A stretch of 64,000 nt of DNA from Balanoglossus misakiensis (GCA_040954595.2 CM082579.2:4205227-4269226); one strand, 5' to 3'. Shown: positions 10,466 through 60,308, counted from the stretch's first letter. Notes: a model not told the origin generated them from the sequence alone. Made by a program: numbers and translations.

Positions 10466-11488
10466 TTAGCTTCTATGACTTGAAGTTGGATCCGTACCCA
10501 AAGTCTCGAAAGTATCAACGTTATTTGTGCATTTTGCACAGAACACGAGGCGCATACCCCTTTGGAACTGTTTGTATTTTAGAGCATAAATAAATGGATT
10601 GATTGAGGAGTTGAGAAACCCAATCACTACGCCGACATTGTAAAAGATACCTCCGAAATTGACCTTTGCCCCCAAACAGAAGGCCAGGAAAGTGAGCTGT
10701 GGTAGGCCCCAGCATAAGGCGTACGCCAGAAAGACCAGGATGAGCATCTTCAGGACATTGTTGCTGGCCCGCTTCATGGAGTTGTCTCGCTTGGCAGCTT
10801 CTTGGTCTTGTTGGTTGATGGTGGCCACGTCTGTCAGTGACTTCTTGCTCAGCGCTATGATGCAGCGGGCGTAGGCCACGGACATGACCACCAGCGGCAC
10901 CAGGTACTGGGCGAACACGTTGCTGATGCCGACGAACTTGCCGAACTCCGGGGAGCTCCACATCTTGGCCGTCTTGCACAGACCGCGGTCGAAGTGCTGG
11001 GTGTAGATGTTGAAGGACTTGAAGACGGCGGCCACCAGCCACTCGGCCGTCAGTATCACGGCCACGCGCGCGTTCGTGAACACGGCGGCGTGGTGGAGCG
11101 GGTAAAGGATGGCGTAGTACCGCTCCAGGGTGATCACCACCAGGTTGAAGCTGGACGCCAGGAAACAGGTCCACAGCAGGTAGGCGGACTTCCACATGCG
11201 GCACAGGAATTCGCCGGCGCCCGAGTTCTCGGTGTAGGTGAACTGCGGGCCGAGGTAGTAGAGCACCAACAGGACGGAGGTGATCAGGTCGATGATAGCC
11301 TGGTGGACGATGAGGTAGTTCGTCAAGGTTCGCAACTTTCGTATTCTGAGAAAGACGATGCAGACCAGTAGGTTACCGCCGATCCCCAAGAAGCCAATGC
11401 AGCCCAGCGTCGTGTTCAGCCACCCCAGTTGATTGGAGCTTGTAGTGGACACTGTTCCGTTGTCCACAGTACCGTTGGCTGATGACAT
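10466..11488 (-). CDS. Class A (rhodopsin-like) GPCR, orphan peptide-receptor-like, 340 aa, intronless CDS
   Basis: Seven hydrophobic segments. TM1 GNLLV, TM2 HQAIID, TM3 C...ITLERYY, TM5 YLVP, TM6 CWGLP, TM7 NSSINPFIY, helix 8 FQRG. N-terminal N-glycosylation sequons (NGT, NGT, NTT). A splice acceptor with polypyrimidine tract lies just upstream of the ATG (exon starts 11507). Confidence 0.95.
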   Translation of the reverse strand: MSSANGTVDNGTVSTTSSNQLGWLNTTLGCIGFLGIGGNLLVCIVFLRIRKLRTLTNYLIVHQAIIDLITSVLLVLYYLGPQFTYTENSGAGEFLCRMWKSAYLLWTCFLASSFNLVVITLERYYAILYPLHHAAVFTNARVAVILTAEWLVAAVFKSFNIYTQHFDRGLCKTAKMWSSPEFGKFVGISNVFAQYLVPLVVMSVAYARCIIALSKKSLTDVATINQQDQEAAKRDNSMKRASNNVLKMLILVFLAYALCWGLPQLTFLAFCLGAKVNFGGIFYNVGVVIGFLNSSINPFIYALKYKQFQRGMRLVFCAKCTNNVDTFETLGTDPTSSHRS

Positions 11489-12392
11489 TGTTGAAGTCTT
11501 TCTGATACTATATATGGGGAGGTGAAAACAGGAAAAAAAGACAAATCAGTAAAAATTATCCCCGATATTTTAAGGCATTTACCGGGCGTTCAATTGATTG
11601 TGGCAATCGTTTATATGAACATACAATGTGAACGCATTAGATTCACACAACAGTGAGTTTGCGAGGTATAGAACTGAAAAGTGTTGTCTTCCTGATATAT
11701 CCTGGGGTAATGAAGGCACACATTAGATTACTTTGTTGGCGTACAAGGCCAGTTGAAAAAAACACACACACAAAAACACGTCTTGCGTAGATCGCGTGAC
11801 TCTTTTCTTTTTCGCACTTTGAATTATTTAGAGTGCCAGAATGCATTGGGTATAGTGAACGAGAACGCATACGCCCGCGGCACAGACAAGGGGCAACAAC
11901 CCAAACTTGAAGTGTTCATACTTGACAGGGCTACATCGACTCGGAAAACAGGTATTCCCCCCTCAGCCATAAAATCACCGCTCTGCCTGCGGTTGTTAAG
12001 GATCAATCACCTTGTGCGTCTACAGTAATTGTTTTTGTAAACGTGTTGTCGTAAAAGACAAGACAAGAAAGTGTCTTCGTGATCATGATCGATAACAGTC
12101 ACTGTCAGAGTTGCATGCGCGGCTCTGCAGGCAGGCAAGGGCCCCTAACAGTTAAAATTGATCAGCGGGCGCGATTACAGTCTCGTTCACTGCTCACATG
12201 TGGAAACGTTTGCGCGCGGTTGAGATAGAAGTGACAGGGGACTACAGGAGAACGGACATTACGCGTCAAAAGTCAGCGTTTACCGTCGGGATCAGCCCTG
12301 TAAGTCGACCCAGATAAAGAGGACGGACAACGAAACTAATAACTACCGTAGCATCACGCGCCCCGTGGAAATCGAACCGTGTGCCGGACTAC

Positions 12393-34906: not shown

Positions 34907-37900
34907 ATGGAGACCAGCTTCTCTCCGAAAGGTATGTATAACTCCAGTTACGATCTAATTATCCCGTTTAACGCCAACCAACCTATCCATACACACAGAG
35001 GGGCAGTATAATACAAGGATACGCTAAGCCTTGCAGTATGTGAAGGATAATGGTTTGTAAGTGGCCTCTTATGGAACCAGTGAGTAATGCACTGTAAAGA
35101 AACGCCGCAATAACTGGTTGCTTGTGTGGAAACAACACAACATATACAGCCCACCGTTGTGTTGTGAGTAAAACTGTGTGTAAGGACTGCCTATGCACAG
35201 CGCATAGGCGCATAGCGACTCGAAGCCCACAAGCGGCTGTTAGCCTGTTAGTTGATGGACAGGTGTGGAAACAACACACGCACCACATACAATCAACTCT
35301 TGTGACCTCATGACATGACCTCGTTTCATTATGAAACCTTGAAAGACTTGGAAAATATTGGGTAGCTTAAAGCCAGTGTGTCTTAACTGACTTGTACAAA
35401 AATTAAACTCAAGAGGCTGTGTTGTGCAATTTTATTCAATTCCGCGACGCAGACACTAGGCGGGCCTGGTTGCGAGGTGTCAGTGCCCGCGCACGTGAAG
35501 TGAATCACAACCGCATTCACCAGTCCGTCACGCTCTATACACGAGTTTTGTGCAGCGATAGTTATTTTTTTGTCGCCAGAAACAGTTGTATTGTCAGTGT
35601 CATCCTTCAGGCGATTCAGCGAATTAGCATGTCACTGTCATTACTCACGAGATTATGTATAAAAAATCCCAACGGTCAGTTTTTCAGAGAGAAGACATGT
35701 CGAGATGTCGAGGTTTCAGAAAAGGAATATAATACACACCGACAAGTAAAAATTTATGTGGACTCAGGCTGGTCATGTCCTAAATCCAACTGCATATACA
35801 TGTATATCCCGTCAGTTATTTGTTGCCACAGTGATCGCTACTATACACATAATAAATAAGGTTTGAAGTACTCGGTAACATTGAATTTATTGGGCCTATT
35901 GGCCATAGCGGCCTATTTTCGTGCCTCCTAAGTGGACCATGTTCCGAATTCCACGAGACCTTGCGACATGTTGCGAGGCCAGACAATTTTATATAAAGGT
36001 TTTTTGATTAAATATGTTTTTATTACAACTGATTAAACATCGAACAGACCATTCAAGTTCTTCGTATTTTATTTATTTTAACAGCTTCGCCAAGAAGACT
36101 CAACACTGCGGACAAAGGTATGTGTCCCGTACGCGTGGAAGTTTGGTCACTTTACTGATGAGTTTTCGCTCATCAGTTTATGACACGCCCCTGCGCTTAG
36201 AAGCGGTATCATTTCGCTGATATACATGCTGAATCATCGGAAATAACATTTGTAATCAAGTATTGTGTTATACGGACTATTCTTTTGCATACTTACAGGT
36301 GTCAGTAAAGATCCTATCAGCGGCAGCTACAGAAGTGTCGCAGTTGACGGCAGACGTTTGGAACTTCGCATCGATGTTGACAAAGTAAAACCCTACTCAC
36401 CCGTGCTGAACGCCATCAGTGGGGAAGTCATAGATCACAACGAGGTCAAAGTTTACTTCAGCTCAACTAAAATCACGTAAGTTTCTGTCACGTAAGTTTC
36501 ACAGATTTACATGGGAGATAGCCGTGATGTCTGCGGCGATCGAAATGACACACACAGACGACACAAAACGTGTTTCCCCCTATTATTTAGGAAAGAGTAT
36601 GAAAATCTGATCTCTGGTTTTGGCGTTGCTGTAGAAGATGACAGGAAAGTACCAACACAGCTATCAGTCAAGATACACAAAGACGATGGTGTTTGGAAAG
36701 CAGAAATCATATTACAACAAGTTAATGTCAGCTATGAGTGCACTAAATACAGCGAGGTAAAGTGATTGCTTCATTTTCAGACTTTTAGCCTTTATGTGAC
36801 AATACATCGCTTGATGTCTTCTCAGGTAAAGGCTTTTGCTACCTAGGTGAGTGATGAAAATCTCATATGGTTGACACAATTTCAAGATATCATTTCTTCA
36901 GGCTCTTACAACAGTGAGTTGTCGACCTTTTACCCAGAATGCAATAATTAAAATGTGATGTGACCCCCTAGCACGACGTTAAAACCTATTGAAGGTAGCC
37001 AAAATTCCCGTTCTTGTTTTGGGGAGCAACTGTTCCATGTCCAGCGGTGTGTGTGATCAGTATTTCAGACATGTTGCCGTGGACATAGATTATAGTGGAA
37101 GCGACAAGCTATTCCTGCCGTCGTACAACACGTCTAGTCATCCTGATAGAGCCGCCGACCTTGATGGTGACCGTGAAATCACACTATTTACAGCTTTGGA
37201 GGATGCCGGTATGCAAATCACCCTGGACGAATCCAAATGCAACAAGGTTTGCCATCTAATCTCCTCACATATAAGCTTATAATTCCGATTTCAAAAATCT
37301 TTCACGGCAATACATATATTGCTGGCGTTTTCATTAGTGATAATTGTAGGATACACTCATTCATTTTTACAATCACTGGCGCCCACTATTAATCAGGAAA
37401 CAGCAACTTGATCAATATCACCGTACGTGAACAAAAAAATTGTTTCAACGCATTTTCGTTTCCTCCAGGTCGAAGATCCTGATCCATCCACGCCTTGGAC
37501 CCTAGCTGAACTTTATGAAGTCATGGAGTCACATCATGATAAAGACCCTGCAAAATGGAATATCTGGATTCTGATGGCACCCAAATACAGAGATTCCCGT
37601 ACGGCTGGGTTAATGTTCGACCGAAAGAATCGCAAAGGGTTTGCCATATTCACGGATCACAAGTGGTTTCAAGGTATGAGGGAGGCCGAGAGCCGTGATA
37701 AGATCAAGAGGAAAATCACAGCAACAGCTCTGAGGAGGTTCATTCACACCTTTGTCCACGAGATGGGCCACGCTTTCAATTTGCAACACTCCTGGGACAG
37801 GGGCGACCTAGATTCGCTGTCTTTCATGAACAACGACTACCGCTACGACTGGAGGAACGGCACAGGGTCCTACTTCAAGAACTTCACGTTCTCCTTCGAC

Positions 37901-40900
37901 GAGGAAGAGGTACGGTTCCTGCGCCACGGCAGATCGGCCTGGGTGCAGCCGGGAGTCTCGCCGTTCCTGAAGGATGTAACGCCGAGCAGTTTACCAGCAG
38001 ACGCCGACGGCGATGACGAGCGTTCAAGGAGGTTGAAGTTCACCGTTAAACCGAGCAGGGACTCGTACGTCCAAATGGAAGTGGTCAGGGTGGAACTGAA
38101 GCTACAGAACACCTCCACAAGACCCATCTACGTCGAAAGCAAACTCGACCCCTGCGAGGAATGGGTCTCAGTGTACATAATGAACCCAAATGGTACTGTG
38201 ACCCAGGTTGATTCCTTCGCCAGCGGTGCAGTTGCCGATTACGTCAAACCACTTTATCCTCCCGGTTCCAAAGACGGCGCAGACAGAGTCAGTGAAGTTG
38301 TGCCGTTGGTGTATGGGAAGGACGGGTTCTATTTCAGACAAGTGGGAGATTATCGCATCAAGGCTGTCTACAGCTTCGGCAATTACTACGTCGCCACAAA
38401 ACCGGTGACTATTAGCATCCAGAGATATGGCGGCGAGAGACATCTGCTGGACAGCTTCTTCACTGACAAAGTTGGAGAGTTCATCGCTCTCGGTGGGTCA
38501 AGCGCGCGAAGATTTGAGGCGACAAGACAGTTTATTCAAGCACTGGCGACATCCCAAGACACTCAGGCCTGGGCCGGAGAGATCGCAGCCATCTGTGGTA
38601 AAAATCTTGCTTATTCCTCAAGGAAGGGGTTTACAAAAGTGGGGAACAACTTGACCGTGGAGAAGGAGAGCCCTGAGTTGCCAGATGAGGTCCTTCAATC
38701 AACCCAAGCTACCGTTGACAGACTTCACAGAAGTGGAGAGCAGGCTGATAATATCATGTATCGTCGCTTGGCCTTTCTGAGAGCCGAGATCTACCTGTTG
38801 AAACAAGATCCGAGAAACGCGGACAGAGAAGTCAGAGATATGACTAGAAGTCTCAAGTCTCGGAAAGTGAAGGAGTACGTAATAAACGAGATTGACCTGG
38901 AATGGAAGACGAGGCGAGGAGATATTGGTCGGCTTCCCTCCAGCATGGACCCTCAGAGAAGAGAAATGTGGCGAGTCGTCCAACCCAGGTCCGAGGAGCT
39001 TCAAGAATGGGTCAAGCGAATCATGCACTGGACGGGTGAGGAAGATGACGGTGGCATTGGTGTCGATGGTGTTGATGATGAAGATGATGACAGTGGTCTT
39101 GGGCATGGCACAGAATTCTCCGCATTTGATGACCAACATCTGCTAGCGTCCGATGACGTCATCGAGCAGATCTTCAGCAAAGCCGACGAGTCCCGAGATA
39201 TTGTCGAGACTTTGGAGTTCGTCAATTCTCTGCAGCACAGCCGTCAATACAATCACACCTTGATCAAGTACGCCCTCAAGATATTCCTCACTCATCACGT
39301 TCTAGCACGAAGCAACCGGCTCAAAGTGCCAGAGATCATTGACGAACCGTCTGGGTGGGATGCGGCCGCCCATGCTATGGTCCCGCCAATAGGCGAACCG
39401 CAAGAGATCTGGATGAATTACTGGAGAAACGACGCCGATTTTGTGGACCACCACCGACACTGGCATGAGACGTACCGAGCACGTGGTCTGCCGGGCACAG
39501 AAGCCGCGCACTTGGACCGCCAGGGCGAACTGTTCGGATACATGCACGAACAGATGCTGGCCAGGTACAACGCGGACCGGGAGTCGTGGGGGCTCGACCC
39601 TGTCGAACCGTGGCACTTCACCGACGTGGATGAGCTCGGCAGTGACGCTGGCGAGGAATTCCACAGCAGCCCACAAAACCGGCAGGTCCGACCACGCCCA
39701 CCGGGGTCGAAGTGGCCGCAGCACAGAGTCGTGCAGTTCAGGCGCTGGAGAGACAACATTCGCAGAGCCCTCCGGGCGGGAGTCTTGCAGCCCGATCGCG
39801 GCACGGATTTCCGCGCTTTTCGATTCGAAGACAACAACGACCTGGAAAATCCCTCCAACAGCGCCGCAAACTGGGTCGGCCACATCGTGGAAGCGACATC
39901 CGGGGCTTTCTCTGATACCTACGGCAGCGTTCACAACATGGGCCACGTGGTCTTTGGTGCACTGGACCAGCCGCGTCGGTTCCGTAGTTACATGGCAACG
40001 CCCGACCACGCTGTCCGGGACCACATCTTCTTTCGATGGCACAAGTTCGTCGACAATCTCATCGACGAATACCACAGCACGAAGAGAACGGAGCTGGCAG
40101 TGGACGCGCCACCAGTGGTCGTAAGAGGGAATGATATCGTGATCAGCACATCGGAAAAATTACCGGATGGGTTTTCCGAGTGGTCGGGAAACGGATGGGG
40201 GAATGGAGAATTCACAAGCAGCACAATCAACACAACGATAGACCTGCCCCAGCGACAGTTCGAATTCGGCAAGCTTACACACGAGCCGTTCTACTATCAC
40301 ATCCGCATCAGACGAAACGGGTCACCAGGACAGGAACTGCGACTGACGCTTCGAATATTCATCTGCCCCGCCAGACATGAAGACGACCGGAGACGCTGGA
40401 TAGAAATGGATAAATTCCGGTACATCTTGGCGGCAAATGAAACGCACGCTGTCATCACGAGAAAGGACAAGCATTCCTCGGTGATTCGGAGAGATCCACG
40501 CGACAGCGACGTACAAGACGACCTGGAGATGCCACTCGCTCGCACGGTCAGTGGGTTCTGCGAGTGCGGCTGGCCGTACAACCTCCTGCTTCCCAAAGGA
40601 ACCCGAGGGGGGGAGCCTTATCGCCTGGCCGTGTACATATCAGACAACAGCGTAGACTCTCTCCGGATCCGCTCGTCCTGCGGAAGTCTCAGCTACTGCG
40701 GTGCCCGCGACAACCGCTACCCGGACCGCCGTCAGATGGGCTACCCTTTCGCCACGCCAGCTACGGTGAACGGTGGCGAGGTGACTGTGACGGAGGCCGT
40801 TCAACAGCTCGACAACTTCGCTCTGACGTCGTTTGCCATCAAGAACAGAGATAGGCGGTTTGGAGAGGAGGAGACACCCGTCATACTCAGGTTGTTGGAA

Positions 40901-41715
40901 CCACCTGTTGAGTTTGTAGTCGGATGGCAAGCCCGTCAGCAGCTGAAACTGAGAGCCAGCGAAGAATATCGGCGCAGCAACTGGACAGGACGATTCCGAG
41001 TTTTAATCGATGGCAGTGCGTTGACGGAAACCAATGCGTTTGCTGATAAGCCATATGCTAAGTTGCGGTTAAAAGTAAGTTAATAAATCGCTTAAAATAT
41101 CACATTTGAATCAATACATACCTTTGTTGCTATTCTGTTGTTTTTGTCATCGTCATGTTTAATTTTGTGACCTCCATGATAGGTCATACCAGTACTTGTA
41201 AACTGGCCAATATCATTACCCTTTCTTGGAAACTTTGAAAGTCCTCGTATGTTGGCCAGAAGAGGTTGACGCGCTCAGTAATCAAAGGAATGTCAAGTTT
41301 GAAAGTATTTCGCCTTTTCTCCAACTAGGGCCGTGGAACTGGTCATGGCGAATACAGGGTGTCCGGTGTCACTTTAGCAGAACGGAGAGGGCGATCTCTA
41401 GATGTAACAGGCCCGCACCACAGCGTCACTTTCGACGACGGGAAGTCGTCTGCGTCAGTCCCGGAAATGGGAACCGAAAGCGACCCCATCGAAATGGTAC
41501 TCGTGCCAGACGTCGACTACTTCGTGACATTCACTTTAGAGACGCCGTCCGTGTACCTGGTTGGCCGCAGAGAGACGTGCACCTGGTTCATCGCCAATCC
41601 TGAGGGCGGGGCGAGACACGAGATGAATTGGGACTTGCGGGAGGTCCGAGACCAAATCTCAGAGACACGGCGCAACCTCTACATGGTGGACCGCATACTG
41701 GTTAATGAAAAGTGA
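34907..41715 (+). CDS. Metzincin metalloprotease - prophenoloxidase/hemocyanin (arthropod-type, type-3 copper) fusion protein, ~1526 aa, 7 exons
   Basis: Phase-consistent exons 34907-34931, 36085-36117, 36299-36476, 36591-36756, 37061-37246, 37469-41074 and 41329-41715 (4581 nt). Zinc motif HEMGHAFNLQH (37757-37789) followed by Met-turn-like SFMN. CuA HHRHWH...GELFGYMHEQMLARY (39449-39547); CuB HNMGH...DHIFFRWH (39932-40042); hemocyanin C-domain CECGWPYNLLLPKG and YPDRRQMGYPF. No signal peptide. The first two small exons are the least certain. Confidence 0.9.
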
Positions 41716-42626
41716 ACACGCTCTGAAATCTAGATCCATGTACTTGAACCCCATAAACCTGACCATGTCAACTGACGCGAATTTCATGTAATCGGCTTCA
41801 CAAACCACCAAATACGAATGTCACAGATGTAATGCACATATGATAAGGGTTGGCACGTTGCCTTATTGTAATATATTGTAGGCTAAATTCTAATATGTAC
41901 TGATCAAGCCTTTTCTAATTTCGTGGAAATTGCAGTCTAAGCTTTGCCCAATACCTGAGATTTTGTGGTCCTTGAAAAAGACCTGACTTCGACAGCATGA
42001 CCAATGGATTTCCGCCAGAAAAGTCAGGCTCTAAACTAATAATTTTTTCACCAGTGCCAATCGAATATTTTGAGTCACCATAACAAAAGGTTTCTAAACT
42101 TGAGATAGAAGAATTACCATTTGTTAACCAATTTCCCAGTTTTTTCAACAGAGTTTAATCAGTTGATTATTAATCCACATTTATTCTGATTTGCGAGGGT
42201 GGTGCCATGCTAGTGACGTGAAAATATGACCAATTTTAGGTAGTGAACGAATATGAGTATCATTTATTTTATTGACTGTAGAGGGCGCTGGTCTAAGAAA
42301 GTCGGGGATTGAGCCTTGCGTTGGCTGACAGCCAATGAGAATAATCACAGTGCAAACTCACTTTAATAATTGGAAACATTTAATCACGCAAATGACTATT
42401 TAGAACATTGCTTTCAAGTCACAGTACAAAACTGAGTACATACATTCAAATTAACAAACTTCGTTCAAGAAGAATTAAAATCAAATCACAGAATTGACTA
42501 GGCAGCTTTGATGATATGATATCCCAATCTATTTTGTAAAGGAAAGTCTTAAACTTGCCGATTGTACTGAAGGAAACCTGACAACAAATTTTTGCTAATA
42601 ATAAAAATAATAACAATCAGTGACTG

Positions 42627-44499
42627 TCATGATTCGTCTTCTCTTTTCTTGATATTTCTGTTTCCAATTTTCCTTTTCTTAAAACCGACGTTGACCTTTT
42701 CGCTGCCACCACCAATACTCCCAACAGTCTTTTCTTTGAATTTGATCTTAATCTTTGGTTCTTCTAATGCTATGGTAACCGGCGGGGCTACATAACTTGC
42801 CCTTGCGTCCGGCAGCTGCAAGTCTGGAGTTTCCCTGTGTGAGGAGAAGAGAATACACAAGCATTGATAACTGTAGAACTGGACAATGAATTATCCCACA
42901 AAAAAACGAGTGACCTAGCTTGATCACCTGCAAAGAAGTAGATTTACACTGTGAAATACTACTTACGAGCTAACTGGTTCAATGGCTTGCCAGGTACCGT
43001 ACGGATTTGATCTCTTCTTTGATGTACTTTTAGTCTGTTGGTCATTTGTTTTCTCTGTGCTGTCGGTAGCCTGTTACAAACACATAGAAGGAAAAAATGC
43101 TTCATTAATATGGTGCATAACCCCCTCCTTTCCTTGTCGAAACAGAAGTCCAAACATAATGAAAGATGTCTGTTTATGTAGTCTCAAACATATGACAATG
43201 CATGATATTTCAATGATGCAGAAAAAATTTCATGGGTTTAATTTACACTCTTACGTTTTCATCTTTTGTTTCTTTTGGTTTGTCGTCAGACTTGCTTCCT
43301 TCTCCTCCTCCTCGTCCTTCATCTTCTGTCTCCTCTTTATCTTCCTGCTCAGTCTTCTCTGTTGATTGGTCAGCTGGCTGCTTTTCTGTTTGTTCCTCTG
43401 GCGATTGTTCTTCTGCTTGTTGTGATGTTTGGTCTTCTGACTGTTGTTGTTCTAATGACTGGTTATCTGTTGTTGACACAAAACCCTCTGGCTTTTCCCA
43501 TGAGGACTCTGAACGACAAAGAGAAATGTTTCATTTTGTGACTTCCATCAATCTTTGCTGCCATTGTTCTCCAAAGCAGTTACTCAATATTATTGTATAC
43601 ATTTGCTTACCACCAGTAAAGCTGTTCCAGAAGTATGTGTACCCCTCAGGTGAGACACCTTCCACCCAATACGGCAGTATATCCTCGGCTTTGGGATGGG
43701 ACTCTGTGCTGCTTTGTTCTGTTGGCTTTTCTGATTCTGAAAGACAGGGATATCAACACACTGACTGAGGGAGTGATCTTGCTTCTTGCTCTATGACAAT
43801 GGAAAGAAATGAACACGACGTACTATAGCAATAAACCCGACTGCATATCTGTGAGTCACTGTGTTTCATGGTAAAGTTACAGCTACACACACACACCTTG
43901 CATTTGCGACTTCTTTTGGAGGACTGCATTCTTGTATTGACCTGCTAATTTTGGATCTCTTTGGACGTCTTGCTGGAATGCCTTCAGAGCTGCCTGGGAA
44001 TGTGCACAAGATATCAAAAATTTTAATTTCCAATGAAACCAGTCACGCACAAATTTTACTATGATCTATACGAAGCACCTCATCATGGTCAATAGGTGTT
44101 GAATAGCAAGTGTTGACAATCTTGACAGTGTTTGATCACAACCCCGCCTCCCAACTTACCTCTTCCATAGCCTGGAGATCACTTTTGAAAGCAGCATCTT
44201 TCTTTTCTTTCGCTACACTTTTCTTCTGTATGTCGCTGATCCTTTTCTGTACATTTTCGTTGTGGCGTTTCCCTCTCTCATGGAAATCTACACTCTGCAA
44301 ACATAAAGATATCGAAATGCTTTTTTAAAGACAAGTTGAGATCATTGAGAAGTGCTGGGTTGAATATTTGCTTCGGCATTTACCACTTGGCTGCAGATGA
44401 TGCAGGTGTGAAAAATTTGAACTTACAGCTTTATTGTCTGTGATCCAACACTTGCAGAAGTCACAGAACTTCTTGGGTTGTGATTTCCAGTACTCAGAC
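42627..44499 (-). CDS. WBP4: WW domain-binding protein 4 (FBP21), spliceosomal matrin-type zinc finger + WW domain, ~332 aa
   Basis: Exons 44499-44427 (SEYWKSQPKKFCDFCKCWITDNK), 44294-44160 (FHERGKRH), 43993-43897, 43736-43611 and 43508-43255 (WW: WVEGVSPEGYTYFWNSFTGESSWEKP), 43070-42967 (NPYGTW), 42834-42627 (KFKEKTV...FKKRK). The ATG is split by an intron (AT|G). The AT lies either at 44800-44799 (GTAAGT donor) or near 45071-45070 (better Kozak context). Confidence 0.93.
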
Positions 44500-45099
44500 C
44501 TGCAAAATGAACAGTGAATGAAAAAAATTAGGAAAGAAATGGGGTGTGCACACGGGACCGGTAAAGAGTGAACTGACTCGCACGACTGCAGGTGAATGAG
44601 ATTCGCAGGCATTGCCATGACTTGAGCCCTAAAAATCCATTTGGCATGTAAATATTGGAGATCGCATGCAACTTGCACTGTTTATAGTGTTGAAGGTTGT
44701 TGCATTCCCATTTTACAACAATCGATTGCACTGAAGTCAACAATTCTTTAGTTGGAGTGAGTTTAAAAGCATCTGCCCTTATATGCACGTGAACTTACAT
44801 ATCTATTCATTTGTAGATTTCGTTTGAGTTATGACATCGTCGGCATGTCAACACTGCAGACCACGGACGAGTCGAGTGTGTTTACCTGCGAAGGGAAGTG
44901 ATGTCATAACCTCGTACACTCCACTTGTAGGACTCATAAAATATTACCAGGATTAGAAATGTAACGTGTATTGTACATTGTTTATAAAGTAAACGTTCGG
45001 TAATAATCAGTACTGATTCATCTCAGTTCCAATTTTCATGAGTTGCCGAATCAAAAGTGTAAAATACACATGGTTTTAAATTTACTCTGGATGGAGGGT

Positions 45100-45536: not shown

Positions 45537-52725
<7,189 letters not shown>

Positions 52726-59305: not shown

Positions 59306-59596
59306 CCCATTCCCTTAAAAACTGTGCCACTCACCCATTCCCTTAAAAACTGTGCCACTCACCCATTCCCTTAAAAACTGTGCCACTCACCCATTCCCTT
59401 AAAAACTGTGCCACTCACCCATTCCCTTAAAAACGGTGCCAACCACCTATTCCCTTAAAAACTGTGCCACTCACCCATTTCCTTAAAAACTGTGCCACTC
59501 ACCCATTCCCTCAAAAAACTGTGCCAACCACCCATTCCCTTAAAAACTGTGCCAACCACCCATCCCAAAAAACTGTGCCAACCACCCATTCCCTTG
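59306..59596. repeat. 28-bp minisatellite, about 10 copies (CCCATTCCCTTAAAAACTGTGCCACTCA)
   Basis: Directly visible tandem array with period 28 and few substitutions. Confidence 0.95.
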
Positions 59597-60060
59597 AACA
59601 CAAAAATAATTTGACGAAAGCAAAAATGAAATTGAAGAACAAGAATGAAATCGAAGAACAAGAATGTAATTTGACGAAAGCAAAAATAAAATCGAAGAAC
59701 ACAAAAATAGTTTGACGAAAGCAAAAATGAAATTGAAGAACAAGAATGAAGTCGAAGAACAAGAATGTAATTTGACGAAAGCAAAAATAAAATCGAAGAA
59801 CACAAAAATAATTTGACGAAAGCAAAAATGAAATCGAAGAACACAAAAATAATTTGACGAAAGCAAAAATGAAATCGAAGAACAAGAATGTGATTTGACG
59901 AAAGCAAAAATGAATTCGAAGAACAAGAATGTAAAATTGACGAAAGCAAAAATGAATTCGAAGAACAAGAATATAGATTTGAAGAACAAGAATATAGATT
60001 TGAAGAACACAAATATAATTTGACCAAAGCAAACGTGAAATTGAAGAATAAAAATAAAAT
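59597..60060. repeat. Compound purine-rich minisatellite (~40-bp unit AATTTGACGAAAGCAAAAATGAAATCGAAGAAC... interleaved with a ~19-bp subunit)
   Basis: Repeated TTTGACGAAAGCAAAAAT and GAAGAACAAGAAT/GAAGAACACAAAAAT modules. It produces the repetitive ORFs in all three minus frames. Confidence 0.9.
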
Positions 60061-60224
60061 TATACAACAAGAAAATAGTTTTTCAAGAATATTGCAACGT
60101 TTGGCTTGCCATAGCGGTCGGCCTTTATCTGCGTCTATCTTCGTGACGCGTCTTTTTGCCAAGTCACGTGAGACGCAGTGTTCAGCGAATCTACGCCATT
60201 GACATCGTTGATCATGCGAATCAG

Positions 60225-60308
<84 letters not shown>
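60225..60308. repeat. (CTAA)21 microsatellite
   Basis: Perfect tetranucleotide repeat. Confidence 0.98.

What the first reader, a model, noticed from the sequence alone, without database searches (positions are those of the whole stretch)
36299..38920. N-terminal protease module looks bacterial: candidate horizontal transfer
The module (ISGSYRS..RLELRIDVD, YFRHVAVDID, PSYNTSSHPDR, WTLAELYEVM, GLMFD...RKGFAIF, HEMGHAFNLQHSW, FTFSFDEEEVRFLRHG...VQPG) matches no animal metzincin I recognise (MMP, ADAM, astacin). It has no signal peptide or cysteine switch, and Asn replaces Gly in HExxHxxGxxH as in pappalysin/ulilysin-type enzymes. From memory it resembles uncharacterised bacterial zinc-protease-like proteins; this is recall, not a search result. 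Spliceosomal introns and ordinary animal neighbours argue against contamination.
Basis: inference. Interest (0 to 1): 0.75.

Follow-up and report, generated by a model that had tools for sequence, protein, structure and literature searches.

The report
Bacterial-type zinc protease fused to phenoloxidase
This gene, in what is likely an acorn-worm genome, joins a zinc-protease module of a family otherwise found here only in bacteria to a copper phenoloxidase; sea squirts and a sponge carry the same fusion, so the module was likely taken from bacteria by a very early animal, not recently.

Summary
All seven quoted motifs lie in four GT-AG-bounded exons (36299-38920). The neighbouring genes are animal genes, which excludes contamination.

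The module has four domains: a small beta-barrel, a metzincin catalytic domain (HEMGHAFNLQH plus a Met-turn), an Ig-like beta-sandwich and a helical domain. No Pfam or NCBIfam peptidase model reaches its cut-off. Complete stand-alone homologues of about 700 aa (25-36% identity) occur in at least 381 prokaryotic genome stretches. The 80 loci kept span eight bacterial phyla and one archaeal phylum.

In the window, the module and an arthropod-type hemocyanin/phenoloxidase domain share one uninterrupted 3.6-kb exon. The same ~1500-aa fusion exists in:
- three other hemichordates;
- four named tunicates, including the Ciona "hemocyanin-like" phenoloxidases;
- the sponge Dysidea avara.

In a careful tree, animals and prokaryotes separate at 100/100, and the order within animals fits the species tree. 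This is therefore an old animal gene. Any bacterial acquisition predates the sponge-bilaterian split. That origin is inferred, because the tree is unrooted.

The protease is predicted to be active. Its role, possibly built-in activation of the phenoloxidase, is untested.

The parts
36299..36476 (+). Exon A: first half of the N-terminal small beta-barrel domain (..SGSYRSVAVDGRRLELRIDVDK..). It starts in codon phase after an AG acceptor. The upstream start exon was not identified.
   Evidence: The motif SG.Y...L.L.VDVD is shared with bacterial homologues. Domain taken from the P0003 model, residues 26-136.
36591..36756 (+). Exon B: second half of the N-terminal beta-barrel domain (KEYENLISGFGVAVEDD..YECTKYSE).
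37061..37246 (+). Exon C: start of the metzincin catalytic domain (YFRHVAVDIDYSGS..SSHPDR..). The intron before it lies at the boundary between the beta-barrel and the catalytic domain.
37469..37993 (+). Exon D, first part: remainder of the catalytic domain (helix A, three strands, the active-site helix and the C-terminal helices).
   Evidence: model m3ca19d06c3b4, pLDDT 92. Metzincin fold match on the 59%-identical P0003 model.
37757..37789 (+). Extended zinc-binding motif HEMGHAFNLQH (His, catalytic Glu, His, Asn, His).
   Evidence: Conservation in 115 family members: H 114, E 114, H 115, N 104 (G 7), H 114.
37826..37828 (+). Met of the predicted Met-turn (SLSFMNNDY).
   Evidence: Met in 110 of 115 members. 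It aligns with the MMP-12 Met-turn in the PDB profile search.
38018..38428 (+). Ig-like beta-sandwich domain.
   Evidence: RbmA, CARDB, transglutaminase and MG-like domains, best Z 9.0
38438..38920 (+). Helical (TPR-like) C-terminal domain of the module.
39038..39097 (+). Acidic linker (EEDDGGIGVDGVDDEDDDSG) between the module and the hemocyanin-type half, inside the same exon.
39401..40060 (+). Hemocyanin_M (type-3 copper centre) domain.
   Evidence: Pfam PF00372, E 6.3e-24, 85.1 bits against cut-off 20.8
40262..40759 (+). Hemocyanin_C Ig-like domain.
   Evidence: Pfam PF03723, E 1.7e-25, 90.3 bits against cut-off 26.4
37469..41074 (+). Exon D as a whole: one uninterrupted 3606-base exon that carries most of the module, the linker and the hemocyanin-type domains. 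The fusion is therefore physical and not an annotation artefact.
41329..41715 (+). Exon E: last coding exon (GRGTGHGEY...VNEK, stop TGA 41713-41715). It is part of a ~230-aa C-terminal extension with no Pfam family.

Best explanation
The interval encodes the N-terminal half of a ~1500-aa animal protein: a four-domain zinc-protease module with a metzincin catalytic domain, joined in one exon to an arthropod-type hemocyanin/phenoloxidase domain. The module was likely acquired from bacteria by an ancestor of sponges and bilaterians.

Shown here:
- the gene structure and the single-exon fusion;
- the intact HExxHxxNxxH motif plus Met-turn;
- the metzincin fold of a close homologue's model;
- complete stand-alone homologues in many prokaryotes;
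- the same fusion in hemichordates, tunicates and a sponge;
- one animal group against all prokaryotes in the tree.

Inferred:
- Direction and age of transfer. I put bacteria to a stem animal at about 0.55-0.6.
- That the module binds zinc and cleaves peptides (about 0.75).
- Its task. My preferred mechanism (about 0.3-0.35) is that the protein is a cytosolic two-enzyme zymogen of immune-type cells. The metzincin module would cut the linker or the N-terminal helical lid of the copper domain, in cis or between copies. That would switch on phenoloxidase without an arthropod-style serine-protease cascade.
For: Gene and fusion:
- The ORF 37412-41083 is open across the module, the linker, Hemocyanin_M and Hemocyanin_C.
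- Exons were mapped with orthologues, and splice sites were read.
- The neighbours are a 7tm_1 GPCR, Cys-loop channel exons, MBT repeats and zf-U1.
- GC3 of the module exon is 0.605, within the range of neighbouring coding ORFs, 0.595-0.747.

Protease:
- Motif and Met-turn are nearly invariant in 115 members.
- The models have pLDDT 92 (window part) and 89 (P0003).
- In the search of 48,161 PDB representatives with the P0003 model, the 12 best rows are all metzincin catalytic domains. These are ADAM-8, ADAM10, archaemetzincin, adamalysin-type, ADAM17 and ADAMTS, at Z 10.0-10.7 with 145-174 residues aligned.

Prokaryotic family:
- 769, 442 and 49 representative clusters at E<=1e-3, 1e-10 and 1e-30.
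- The 80 loci kept are 79 Bacteria and 1 Archaea in nine phyla.
- Bacterial proteins carry the whole module, including the N-terminal motifs.
- The nearest Atlas clusters are 87-100% Bacteria.

Animal distribution:
- Ptychodera 1529 aa at 73% identity, Glandiceps 1525 aa and Saccoglossus.
- Ciona intestinalis 1460 and 1501 aa, at 27% and 29% identity and E 2e-55 and 9e-59.
- Clavelina, Phallusia and Styela.
- Dysidea avara 1492 aa, at 35% identity and E 2e-91.

Tree (40 rows x 489 columns, LG+C20 PMSF):
- animals against prokaryotes 100/100;
- sponge clade 100/100, tunicates 100/100, hemichordates 100/99;
- tunicates plus hemichordates 88/75.
The same animal/prokaryote split appears.
Against: - The tree is unrooted. 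Animals sit on one long branch opposite all sampled prokaryotes, so nesting inside bacteria, the classic sign of transfer, is not shown.
- The searches for other eukaryotes were weak. The word-indexed searches scored only about 8000 candidates each, and one missed a 38%-identical fused protein. The 50%-identity representative library evidently hid the tunicate fused forms behind other representatives (absent from the 150 best hits listed, found). Homologues in other eukaryotes could have been missed in the same way.
- Most hits are unnamed.
- No conserved operon partner and no hemocyanin-like neighbour were found in the 80 prokaryotic loci, so bacterial context gives no hint of function.
- No expression data could be obtained.
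- The self-activation idea has no direct support. A review of tunicate immunity attributes phenoloxidase activation to serine proteases (PMC5465252, passages read).
- The metzincin fold match was obtained on a homologue's model (59% identical). It did not appear for the window's own partial model, whose match lists were filled by the other two domains.
Confidence: 0.6

Rival explanations
1. Vertical inheritance. The module family is ancient (older than eukaryotes, or present in the first eukaryotes). It reached animals by descent and was lost in all other eukaryotes and in most animal phyla. No transfer took place.
For: Animals form a single group separated from all prokaryotes by a long, fully supported branch, and they are not nested in any bacterial subgroup. 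Within animals the order fits the species tree. The gene already needs many losses inside animals. My searches for other eukaryotes were of limited sensitivity.
Against: No named non-animal eukaryote appeared among the named hits. The family is spread over eight bacterial phyla and one archaeal phylum with mixed-phylum clades. Descent would need independent loss in every other eukaryotic lineage.
Confidence: 0.25
2. A recent, lineage-specific transfer from bacteria into hemichordates, which is the reader's implicit picture of patchy animals nested among bacteria.
For: By BLASTP bit score the window module is nearer to some bacterial proteins (241, 234 and 232 bits for L001, L015 and L046) than to Ciona (197 and 188 bits).
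Against: Sponge proteins score higher still (293-311 bits). The same fusion architecture is present in tunicates and a sponge. All animals are one group at 100/100. Codon GC3 is within the range of neighbouring genes. The low Ciona scores fit the long tunicate branches.
Confidence: 0.02
3. Transfer in the opposite direction. The module arose in early animals and was passed to bacteria, where it spread.
For: The unrooted tree allows it. The bacterial clades mix phyla, which shows that the gene moves easily between bacteria.
Against: Bacterial proteins lack the hemocyanin half and have no introns. They occur in soil, sediment and marine taxa of eight bacterial phyla. Their internal divergence is as deep as the animal one.
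Confidence: 0.05
4. Contamination or mis-assembly: bacterial DNA joined to animal sequence.
For: None beyond the bacterial-like similarity.
Against: There are four GT-AG introns in the gene. The module is in frame with the hemocyanin domain in one exon. Animal genes lie on both sides. Orthologues with the same architecture lie on chromosome-scale contigs of three other hemichordates.
Confidence: 0.01
5. Functional rival. The module does not process its own phenoloxidase half. It either cleaves other substrates (microbial or matrix proteins, with the oxidase cross-linking the products), or it serves mainly as a binding or regulatory scaffold.
For: Stand-alone module genes exist, in bacteria and as a 700-aa paralogue in Ptychodera, so the module has a function without the oxidase. 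One bacterial member is fused to an M28 aminopeptidase instead. Tunicate phenoloxidase activation is ascribed to serine proteases (PMC5465252).
Against: The fusion has been kept since before sponges and bilaterians split, with the catalytic residues intact in every animal sequence inspected. That argues for a coupled and catalytic role. It does not say on which substrate.
Confidence: 0.4

Closest known systems
Adamalysin/ADAM/ADAMTS (MEROPS M12B) and archaemetzincin (M54) catalytic domains
   Same: Metzincin fold: Z 10.0-10.7, rmsd 3.2-4.2 A, 145-174 residues aligned over residues ~135-350 of the P0003 model. Extended His-Glu-His-His motif and a Met-turn.
   Different: No Pfam model of these families reaches its cut-off; the best are sub-threshold hits to the motif alone. 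Asn stands where they have Gly. No cysteine-switch prodomain was seen. The homologues have no secretion signal by eye. The accessory domains differ: an N-terminal beta-barrel, a beta-sandwich and a helical domain.
   Same: Metzincin fold match: ulilysin 2cki Z 9.7 with 165 residues aligned; PAPP-A Z 8.4.
   Different: The match is no better than to ADAMs or archaemetzincin. No Pfam hit was listed for an M43 model. Whether M43 enzymes carry Asn at that motif position was not checked here.
Uncharacterised prokaryotic ~650-800-aa proteins, such as Gemmatimonadales MAG TVR65050.1, the Rheinheimera sp. SA_1 hypothetical protein, and genes in Paenarthrobacter, Nocardia, Maribellus and Algoriphagus
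   Same: The whole four-domain module is alignable end to end at 25-36% identity (best segment), with the same N-terminal SG.Y / L.L.VDVD and F+..+..D motifs and the same zinc motif with Asn.
   Different: They are stand-alone and have no hemocyanin half. No hemocyanin-like gene lies within about 6 kb in 80 loci. No conserved neighbour was found across phyla. None matches PADLOC or NCBIfam.
Arthropod-type hemocyanin/prophenoloxidase superfamily, including the Ciona phenoloxidases CinPO-1/2 and the 'hemichordate hemocyanin' of the literature
   Same: The C-terminal half passes Pfam Hemocyanin_M and Hemocyanin_C. The Ciona 'hemocyanin-like protein 1' and the Saccoglossus 'Hemocyanin AA6 chain' are its relatives, at 39% and 67% identity. 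The Saccoglossus hemocyanin-M protein and a beta-subclass 'hemichordate hemocyanin' are listed in PMC3730353 and PMC3658974 (passages read).
   Different: No Pfam Hemocyanin_N match. A ~700-aa protease module lies in front and a ~230-aa extension without a family lies behind. The papers I could read describe these proteins as phenoloxidases or hemocyanins only and do not mention a protease half.
Candidate microbial gene acquisitions on the deuterostome stem (Simakov et al. 2015, PMC4729200)
   Same: The same kind of argument applies: a gene at a normal animal locus, with introns, resembling microbial sequences and no other animals' (passages read).
   Different: This gene is also in a sponge, so it is older than the deuterostome stem. 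The two supplementary files held as text, of the four the paper lists, contain no row with hemocyanin, phenoloxidase or tyrosinase. The supplementary note (PDF) could not be seen.

Membership tests
Metzincin clan of zinc metallopeptidases | Extended zinc-binding motif HExxHxx(G/N)xxH/D; the consensus itself is recalled from the metzincin literature | tested here: met
   HEMGHAFNLQH at 37757-37789. In 115 aligned members: H 114, E 114, H 115, N 104 / G 7, H 114.
Metzincin clan of zinc metallopeptidases | Conserved Met-turn shortly after the third zinc ligand | tested here: met
   Met at 37826-37828, 13 residues after the third His. Met in 110 of 115 members. It aligns with the MMP-12 Met-turn.
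Metzincin clan of zinc metallopeptidases | Catalytic-domain fold: a mixed beta-sheet, an active-site helix and a C-terminal helix | tested here: met
   On the model of P0003 (hemichordate paralogue, 59% identical, pLDDT 89), the 12 best of 48,161 PDB representatives are metzincin catalytic domains, Z 10.0-10.7. The window's own partial model lacks the first strand (exon C) and gave no metzincin row among the 50 shown.
Metzincin clan of zinc metallopeptidases | Zinc binding and peptide-bond hydrolysis | not testable with these tools
   Needs protein chemistry.
Animal metzincin families: MMP (M10), ADAM/reprolysin (M12B), astacin (M12A) | Match to the family's Pfam model above its gathering score | tested here: not met
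   Best hits are Reprolysin_5 at 15.9 bits (cut-off 27) and Peptidase_M10 at 14.6 bits (cut-off 24), on the motif only. None of the 27 family members reaches a peptidase cut-off.
Pappalysin/ulilysin (M43) | Specific similarity above that to other metzincins | tested here: inconclusive
   Ulilysin Z 9.7 against ADAM-8 at 10.7 and archaemetzincin at 10.6. Differences under 1 count as ties. No Pfam M43 hit was listed.
Arthropod-type hemocyanin/phenoloxidase superfamily (C-terminal half of the gene) | Hemocyanin_M copper domain and Hemocyanin_C Ig-like domain | tested here: met
   PF00372 at 85.1 bits (cut-off 20.8) and PF03723 at 90.3 bits (cut-off 26.4).
Arthropod-type hemocyanin/phenoloxidase superfamily (C-terminal half of the gene) | Hemocyanin_N all-alpha domain (PF03722) | tested here: not met
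   Not among the Pfam hits of P0001 at E<=0.1. It is present in the precomputed domain lists of the Asterias and Drosophila relatives. A helical stretch does precede the M domain, but it was not classified.
Horizontally acquired animal gene (criteria as in PMC4729200, Methods) | Matches microbial sequences far better than non-related animals; lies at a locus among bona fide animal genes | tested here: met
   Prokaryotic hits reach phmmer E 1e-62. No animal hit outside hemichordates, tunicates and the sponge clade was seen, with the sensitivity limits stated. The locus is animal.
Horizontally acquired animal gene (criteria as in PMC4729200, Methods) | Gene tree places the animal sequences inside the donor group | tested here: inconclusive
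   Animals and prokaryotes are the two sides of one branch, and the root is unknown.
Horizontally acquired animal gene (criteria as in PMC4729200, Methods) | Absence from other eukaryotes | tested here: inconclusive
   No named non-animal eukaryote was found among the hits. However, the searches were word-filtered or made on 50% representatives, and most hits are unnamed.

The most novel reading that the evidence does not exclude
The ancestral animal phenoloxidase was a self-contained protease-oxidase zymogen. A bacterial metzincin captured before sponges and bilaterians split serves as the built-in activator of the copper enzyme. The 'arthropod-type' phenoloxidases of sea squirts and acorn worms studied for decades are only the C-terminal halves of this machine. 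The hemocyanin half itself may share the bacterial origin.
Probability: 0.2. Interest if true: 0.8.

Novelty: new variant of a known kind. Interest (0 to 1): 0.58.

Why it matters
Three points would interest specialists.

1. A widespread prokaryotic protein family of about 700 aa with a metzincin catalytic core has no Pfam, NCBIfam or PADLOC model and no solved structure by sequence. It is in effect an undescribed metzincin family.

2. The phenoloxidases of tunicates and the 'hemocyanin' of hemichordates are used in work on invertebrate immunity and on the origin of arthropod hemocyanins. They turn out to be halves of ~1500-aa proteins. The other half is this protease module, and a sponge has the same fusion. 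In the papers I could search I found no description of this.

3. It gives a concrete, testable alternative to the assumed serine-protease activation of phenoloxidase in animals that lack the arthropod cascade. It also offers a possible case of a very old bacterial contribution to animal innate immunity.

Tried and rejected
- Expression: no RNA holder was listed for 35000-41900, so splicing and a single transcript could not be checked with reads.
- The window's own genome is not held, so paralogues elsewhere in the genome were not searched.
- Earlier findings of this scan: nothing by place or by sequence.
- First coding exon: a scan for ATG...GT exons in the right phase between 31000 and 36298 gave ten candidates, none convincing. 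The likeliest by length is 32509-32563.
- Bacterial context: no hemocyanin-like gene within the 80 loci (tblastn). No neighbour family is shared beyond the Arthrobacter/Paenarthrobacter group. Two neighbourhoods inspected differ: Tex and an MkoA-like helicase in Paenarthrobacter, a SIR2-TPR gene in Maribellus. The family itself has no PADLOC hit, so a defence-system reading was dropped.
- Foldseek on both whole models was dominated by the beta-sandwich of GH3 glycosidases. The zinc peptidases OgpA and Amuc_1438, and for the P0003 model E. coli aminopeptidase N, appeared only at TM 0.09-0.26. An M1-aminopeptidase-like four-domain layout was considered but not pursued (rmsd above 20 A).
- VIA-align on the window's own model matched only residues 184-484.
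- PDB by sequence profile: apart from a designed protein matched on the helical domain (E 0.004), only motif-level hits, MMP-12 at E 0.03.
- Hemocyanin-half tree (49 rows). The fused-type animal sequences form one clade on a long stem. The two canonical animal sequences available (Asterias, Drosophila) fall among ~700-aa bacterial or metagenomic proteins. With two long canonical branches this decides nothing.
- Literature: searches found no paper describing a protease-phenoloxidase fusion. PMC11803259 has one passing mention of tunicates, in another enzyme class.
- A first 86-row IQ-TREE run gave no answer. It was replaced by FastTree on all 86 rows and by IQ-TREE on hand-picked subsets of 49 and 40 rows.
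- Rows left out of all trees: 19 near-identical Arthrobacter/Paenarthrobacter loci and 6 partial loci, of the 80.

Full report
**What is in the sequence**

The + strand between 36299 and 41715 carries one gene. A stop-to-stop frame of 1223 codons (37412-41083) holds most of it. tblastn with hemichordate proteins, together with the splice sites read, gives these exons:
- A: 36299-36476
- B: 36591-36756
- C: 37061-37246
- D: 37469-41074
- E: 41329-41715 (stop TGA at 41713-41715)

All four introns seen are GT-AG. The first coding exon was not found.

Pfam finds Hemocyanin_M (85.1 bits) and Hemocyanin_C (90.3 bits) in the second half of exon D. In the first half it finds only sub-threshold matches to the zinc motif of reprolysin and matrixin models. 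NCBIfam finds nothing.

The other half is an arthropod-type hemocyanin/phenoloxidase. The two halves and the acidic linker between them (39038-39097) lie in one uninterrupted 3606-base exon.

**Not contamination**

The neighbouring reading frames are a rhodopsin-type GPCR (10466-11545, - strand), exons of a Cys-loop ion channel (29566-31312, -), MBT repeats (48744-50508, +) and a U1-type zinc finger (44325-44681, -). GC3 of the module part of exon D is 0.605, against 0.595-0.747 for the neighbouring GPCR and MBT reading frames.

**What the module is**

AlphaFold models were built with 128- and 115-row alignments. The window's exon-D part (484 aa) reached pLDDT 92 and pTM 0.91. A complete 700-aa hemichordate paralogue, P0003 (59% identical), reached pLDDT 89 and pTM 0.89.

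The complete model has four domains:
- a small beta-barrel (residues ~26-136);
- an alpha/beta catalytic domain (~138-350);
- an Ig-like beta-sandwich (~372-508);
- a helical domain (~512-680).

In an all-against-48,161 search of PDB representatives with the P0003 model, the 12 best rows are all metzincin catalytic domains: ADAM-8, ADAM10, archaemetzincin, adamalysin-type enzymes, ADAM17 and ADAMTS. They score Z 10.0-10.7 with 145-174 residues aligned. Ulilysin follows at Z 9.7. A second look at Foldseek's own list agrees.

The window's own partial model lacks the first strand, which is encoded by exon C. It matched only through its other two domains.

In 115 aligned family members the motif positions are as follows:

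| Position | Conservation |
|---|---|
| first His | 114 of 115 |
| Glu | 114 of 115 |
| second His | 115 of 115 |
| Asn | 104 of 115 (Gly in 7, five of them tunicates) |
| third His | 114 of 115 |
| Met of the Met-turn | 110 of 115 |

None of 27 members reaches the cut-off of any Pfam peptidase family. PADLOC and NCBIfam give nothing for the family. By sequence the PDB offers only motif-level matches to peptidases (MMP-12, E 0.03).

This is a metzincin by motif and fold, but it belongs to none of the described families that I could test.

**Relatives in prokaryotes**

A full HMMER pass over 1.84 billion representatives gave 769 hits at E<=1e-3, 442 at <=1e-10 and 49 at <=1e-30.

The 80 loci kept are 79 Bacteria and 1 Archaea:

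| Phylum | Loci |
|---|---|
| Actinomycetota | 40 |
| Acidobacteriota | 10 |
| Bacteroidota | 9 |
| Chloroflexota | 8 |
| Pseudomonadota | 6 |
| Thermodesulfobacteriota | 3 |
| Gemmatimonadota | 2 |
| Spirochaetota | 1 |
| Thermoplasmatota | 1 |

Their proteins are 650-800 aa and 25-36% identical (best segment). They align over the whole module, including the N-terminal SG.Y...L.L.VDVD motif. The N-termini I read show no signal peptide by eye.

They stand alone. No hemocyanin-like gene lies in any of the 80 loci, and no neighbour is conserved across phyla. The nearest ESM Atlas clusters are 'hypothetical protein' clusters that are 87-100% bacterial.

**Relatives in animals: the point that changes the reading**

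The closest proteins are hemichordate:
- Ptychodera flava, 1529 aa, 73% identical, with the same Pfam hemocyanin domains;
- Glandiceps talaboti, 1525 aa;
- Saccoglossus kowalevskii, 618 aa;
- a stand-alone 700-aa Ptychodera paralogue.

A search with the hemocyanin half returned 16 proteins of 1225-1546 aa. Seven are named: one Ptychodera, two Ciona intestinalis, two Clavelina, one Phallusia and one Styela.

BLASTP shows that the Ciona proteins carry the module. LOC100180038 matches at residues 161-648 (27% identity, E 2e-55). 'Hemocyanin-like protein 1' matches at residues 208-705 (29%, E 9e-59). Their motifs are HECGHTMGLMH and HECGHCLGLKH.

The unnamed 1447-1515-aa group is 35-38% identical to the window module. 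One of its 90% clusters contains two RefSeq proteins of the demosponge Dysidea avara (taxonomy). XP_065891974.1 has the module at residues 198-690 (35%, E 2e-91), with HECGHAFNLQH followed by the hemocyanin half.

A second unnamed fused lineage (P0102, P0209, P0151) begins its homology exactly at 'VEDPDPS', where the window's exon D begins.

**Trees**

- FastTree on 86 rows, quick IQ-TREE on 49 and 40 rows and a careful IQ-TREE on 40 rows x 489 columns under LG+C20 PMSF all put the animal sequences on one side of a branch and all prokaryotic ones on the other.
- That split has support 100/100 in the careful tree.
- The sponge clade (100/100), tunicates (100/100) and hemichordates (100/99) are each monophyletic.
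- Tunicates plus hemichordates group at 88/75, as in the species tree.
- The window sequence sits inside the hemichordates.
- The trees are unrooted, so they cannot show animals nested within bacteria.
- Of the 80 loci, 19 near-identical Arthrobacter/Paenarthrobacter loci and 6 partial loci were left out. The smaller sets were picked by hand for diversity.

**Interpretation of origin**

The fusion is old. It was present before sponges and bilaterians diverged, and it descended vertically with many losses.

The module family is abundant and diverse in prokaryotes. I found it in no named eukaryote outside animals. I therefore think a single ancient transfer into a stem animal, followed by fusion to a type-3 copper oxidase, is the likeliest origin (about 0.55-0.6).

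Descent from a much older ancestor with loss everywhere else remains a serious rival (about 0.25), for three reasons:
- the tree has no root;
- my eukaryote sampling was indirect;
- the searches demonstrably miss things. One search missed a 38%-identical fused protein that one search found. The 150 best hits listed included none of the tunicate fused proteins that one search found.

A recent hemichordate-specific transfer is excluded.

**Interpretation of function**

The catalytic residues are intact in all animal and nearly all prokaryotic members, so an active zinc endopeptidase is predicted.

The four hemichordate N-termini seen have no evident signal peptide. That fits the cytosolic beta-subclass of type-3 copper proteins (PMC3658974, passages).

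In arthropods prophenoloxidase is switched on by limited proteolysis (established knowledge). In ascidians the enzyme is assumed to be a proenzyme activated by serine proteases (PMC5465252, passages).

I propose, as inference only, that the fused metzincin is a built-in activator that cuts the linker or the N-terminal lid of the copper domain. Stand-alone modules in bacteria and in Ptychodera, and a bacterial fusion to an M28 aminopeptidase, show that the module can also work on other substrates. That is the main functional rival.

**What is known**

A hemocyanin-M protein in Saccoglossus and a 'hemichordate hemocyanin' of the beta subclass are in the literature (PMC3730353, PMC3658974; passages). 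So are the Ciona phenoloxidases (PMC9395347, PMC5465252; passages).

None of the passages I read, and none of four full-text searches, mentions a protease half. Split gene models may explain this: Saccoglossus has a 618-aa module protein and a separate 700-aa 'Hemocyanin AA6 chain'.

Simakov et al. 2015 (PMC4729200; passages) proposed microbial acquisitions on the deuterostome stem. The two of its four listed supplementary files that are held as text have no row for this gene, and the PDF note was not visible to me.

**Verdict**

The module is of a bacterial type, but the gene is an ancient animal fusion and not a patchy recent import. It is a new variant of known kinds: an undescribed metzincin family, and a phenoloxidase with a built-in protease.

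Noticed in passing
window 40760-41074 and 41329-41715: About 230 aa follow Hemocyanin_C, including all of the last exon, and have no Pfam family. By alignment the stretch is conserved in the Ptychodera and Glandiceps orthologues, and it appears in the sponge-clade protein P0045.
   Followed up: partly
proteins P0234-P0267: Proteins of about 700 aa with Hemocyanin_M plus Hemocyanin_C, two of them named (a Chloroflexi MAG and Nostoc sp., 'tyrosinase family protein'), match the window's hemocyanin half at E 1e-49 to 1e-68. That is better than Asterias (3e-44) or Drosophila PO2 (6e-37). A 49-row tree left the relation open.
   Followed up: partly
P0002 and P0216 (Saccoglossus kowalevskii): The Saccoglossus module protein (618 aa, LOC102809481) and the 'Hemocyanin AA6 chain' (700 aa) look like the two halves of one gene that was split by annotation. 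The module protein ends shortly after the acidic linker.
   Followed up: no
P0003 (Ptychodera flava, 700 aa): A stand-alone copy of the module without the hemocyanin half exists in a hemichordate. It branches at the base of the hemichordate clade.
   Followed up: partly
P0225, P0227-P0230, P0233 (tunicates): Tunicate copies have the canonical Gly in HExxHxxGxxH. Hemichordates, the sponge clade and almost all prokaryotes have Asn.
   Followed up: yes
P0102, P0209, P0151, P0139, P0047 (unnamed): A second unnamed lineage of fused-type proteins. It is sister to hemichordates in the hemocyanin tree (support 91). One fragment starts its homology exactly at the window's exon C/D boundary ('VEDPDPS'), which suggests a shared intron position.
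   Followed up: partly
P0130 (unnamed, 1150 aa): A prokaryote-like member carries an N-terminal LapA-like M28 aminopeptidase domain in front of the module.
   Followed up: partly
L004:8643-10622 and L014:8149-11712: Next to the module gene, Maribellus has a SIR2-TPR protein (ThsA-like by PADLOC) and Paenarthrobacter has an MkoA-like helicase-nuclease. The two neighbourhoods are not alike.
   Followed up: partly
P0204 and P0004 (Glandiceps talaboti) N-termini: Both begin with Met-Gly (MGTATS.., MGNVFY..), which could be an N-myristoylation signal. Ptychodera begins with MATG.
   Followed up: no
window 59455-60228, - strand: Three overlapping long open frames, rich in Leu, Phe, Ser and Cys with repeated short units. 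This looks like a tandem repeat and not a gene.
   Followed up: no
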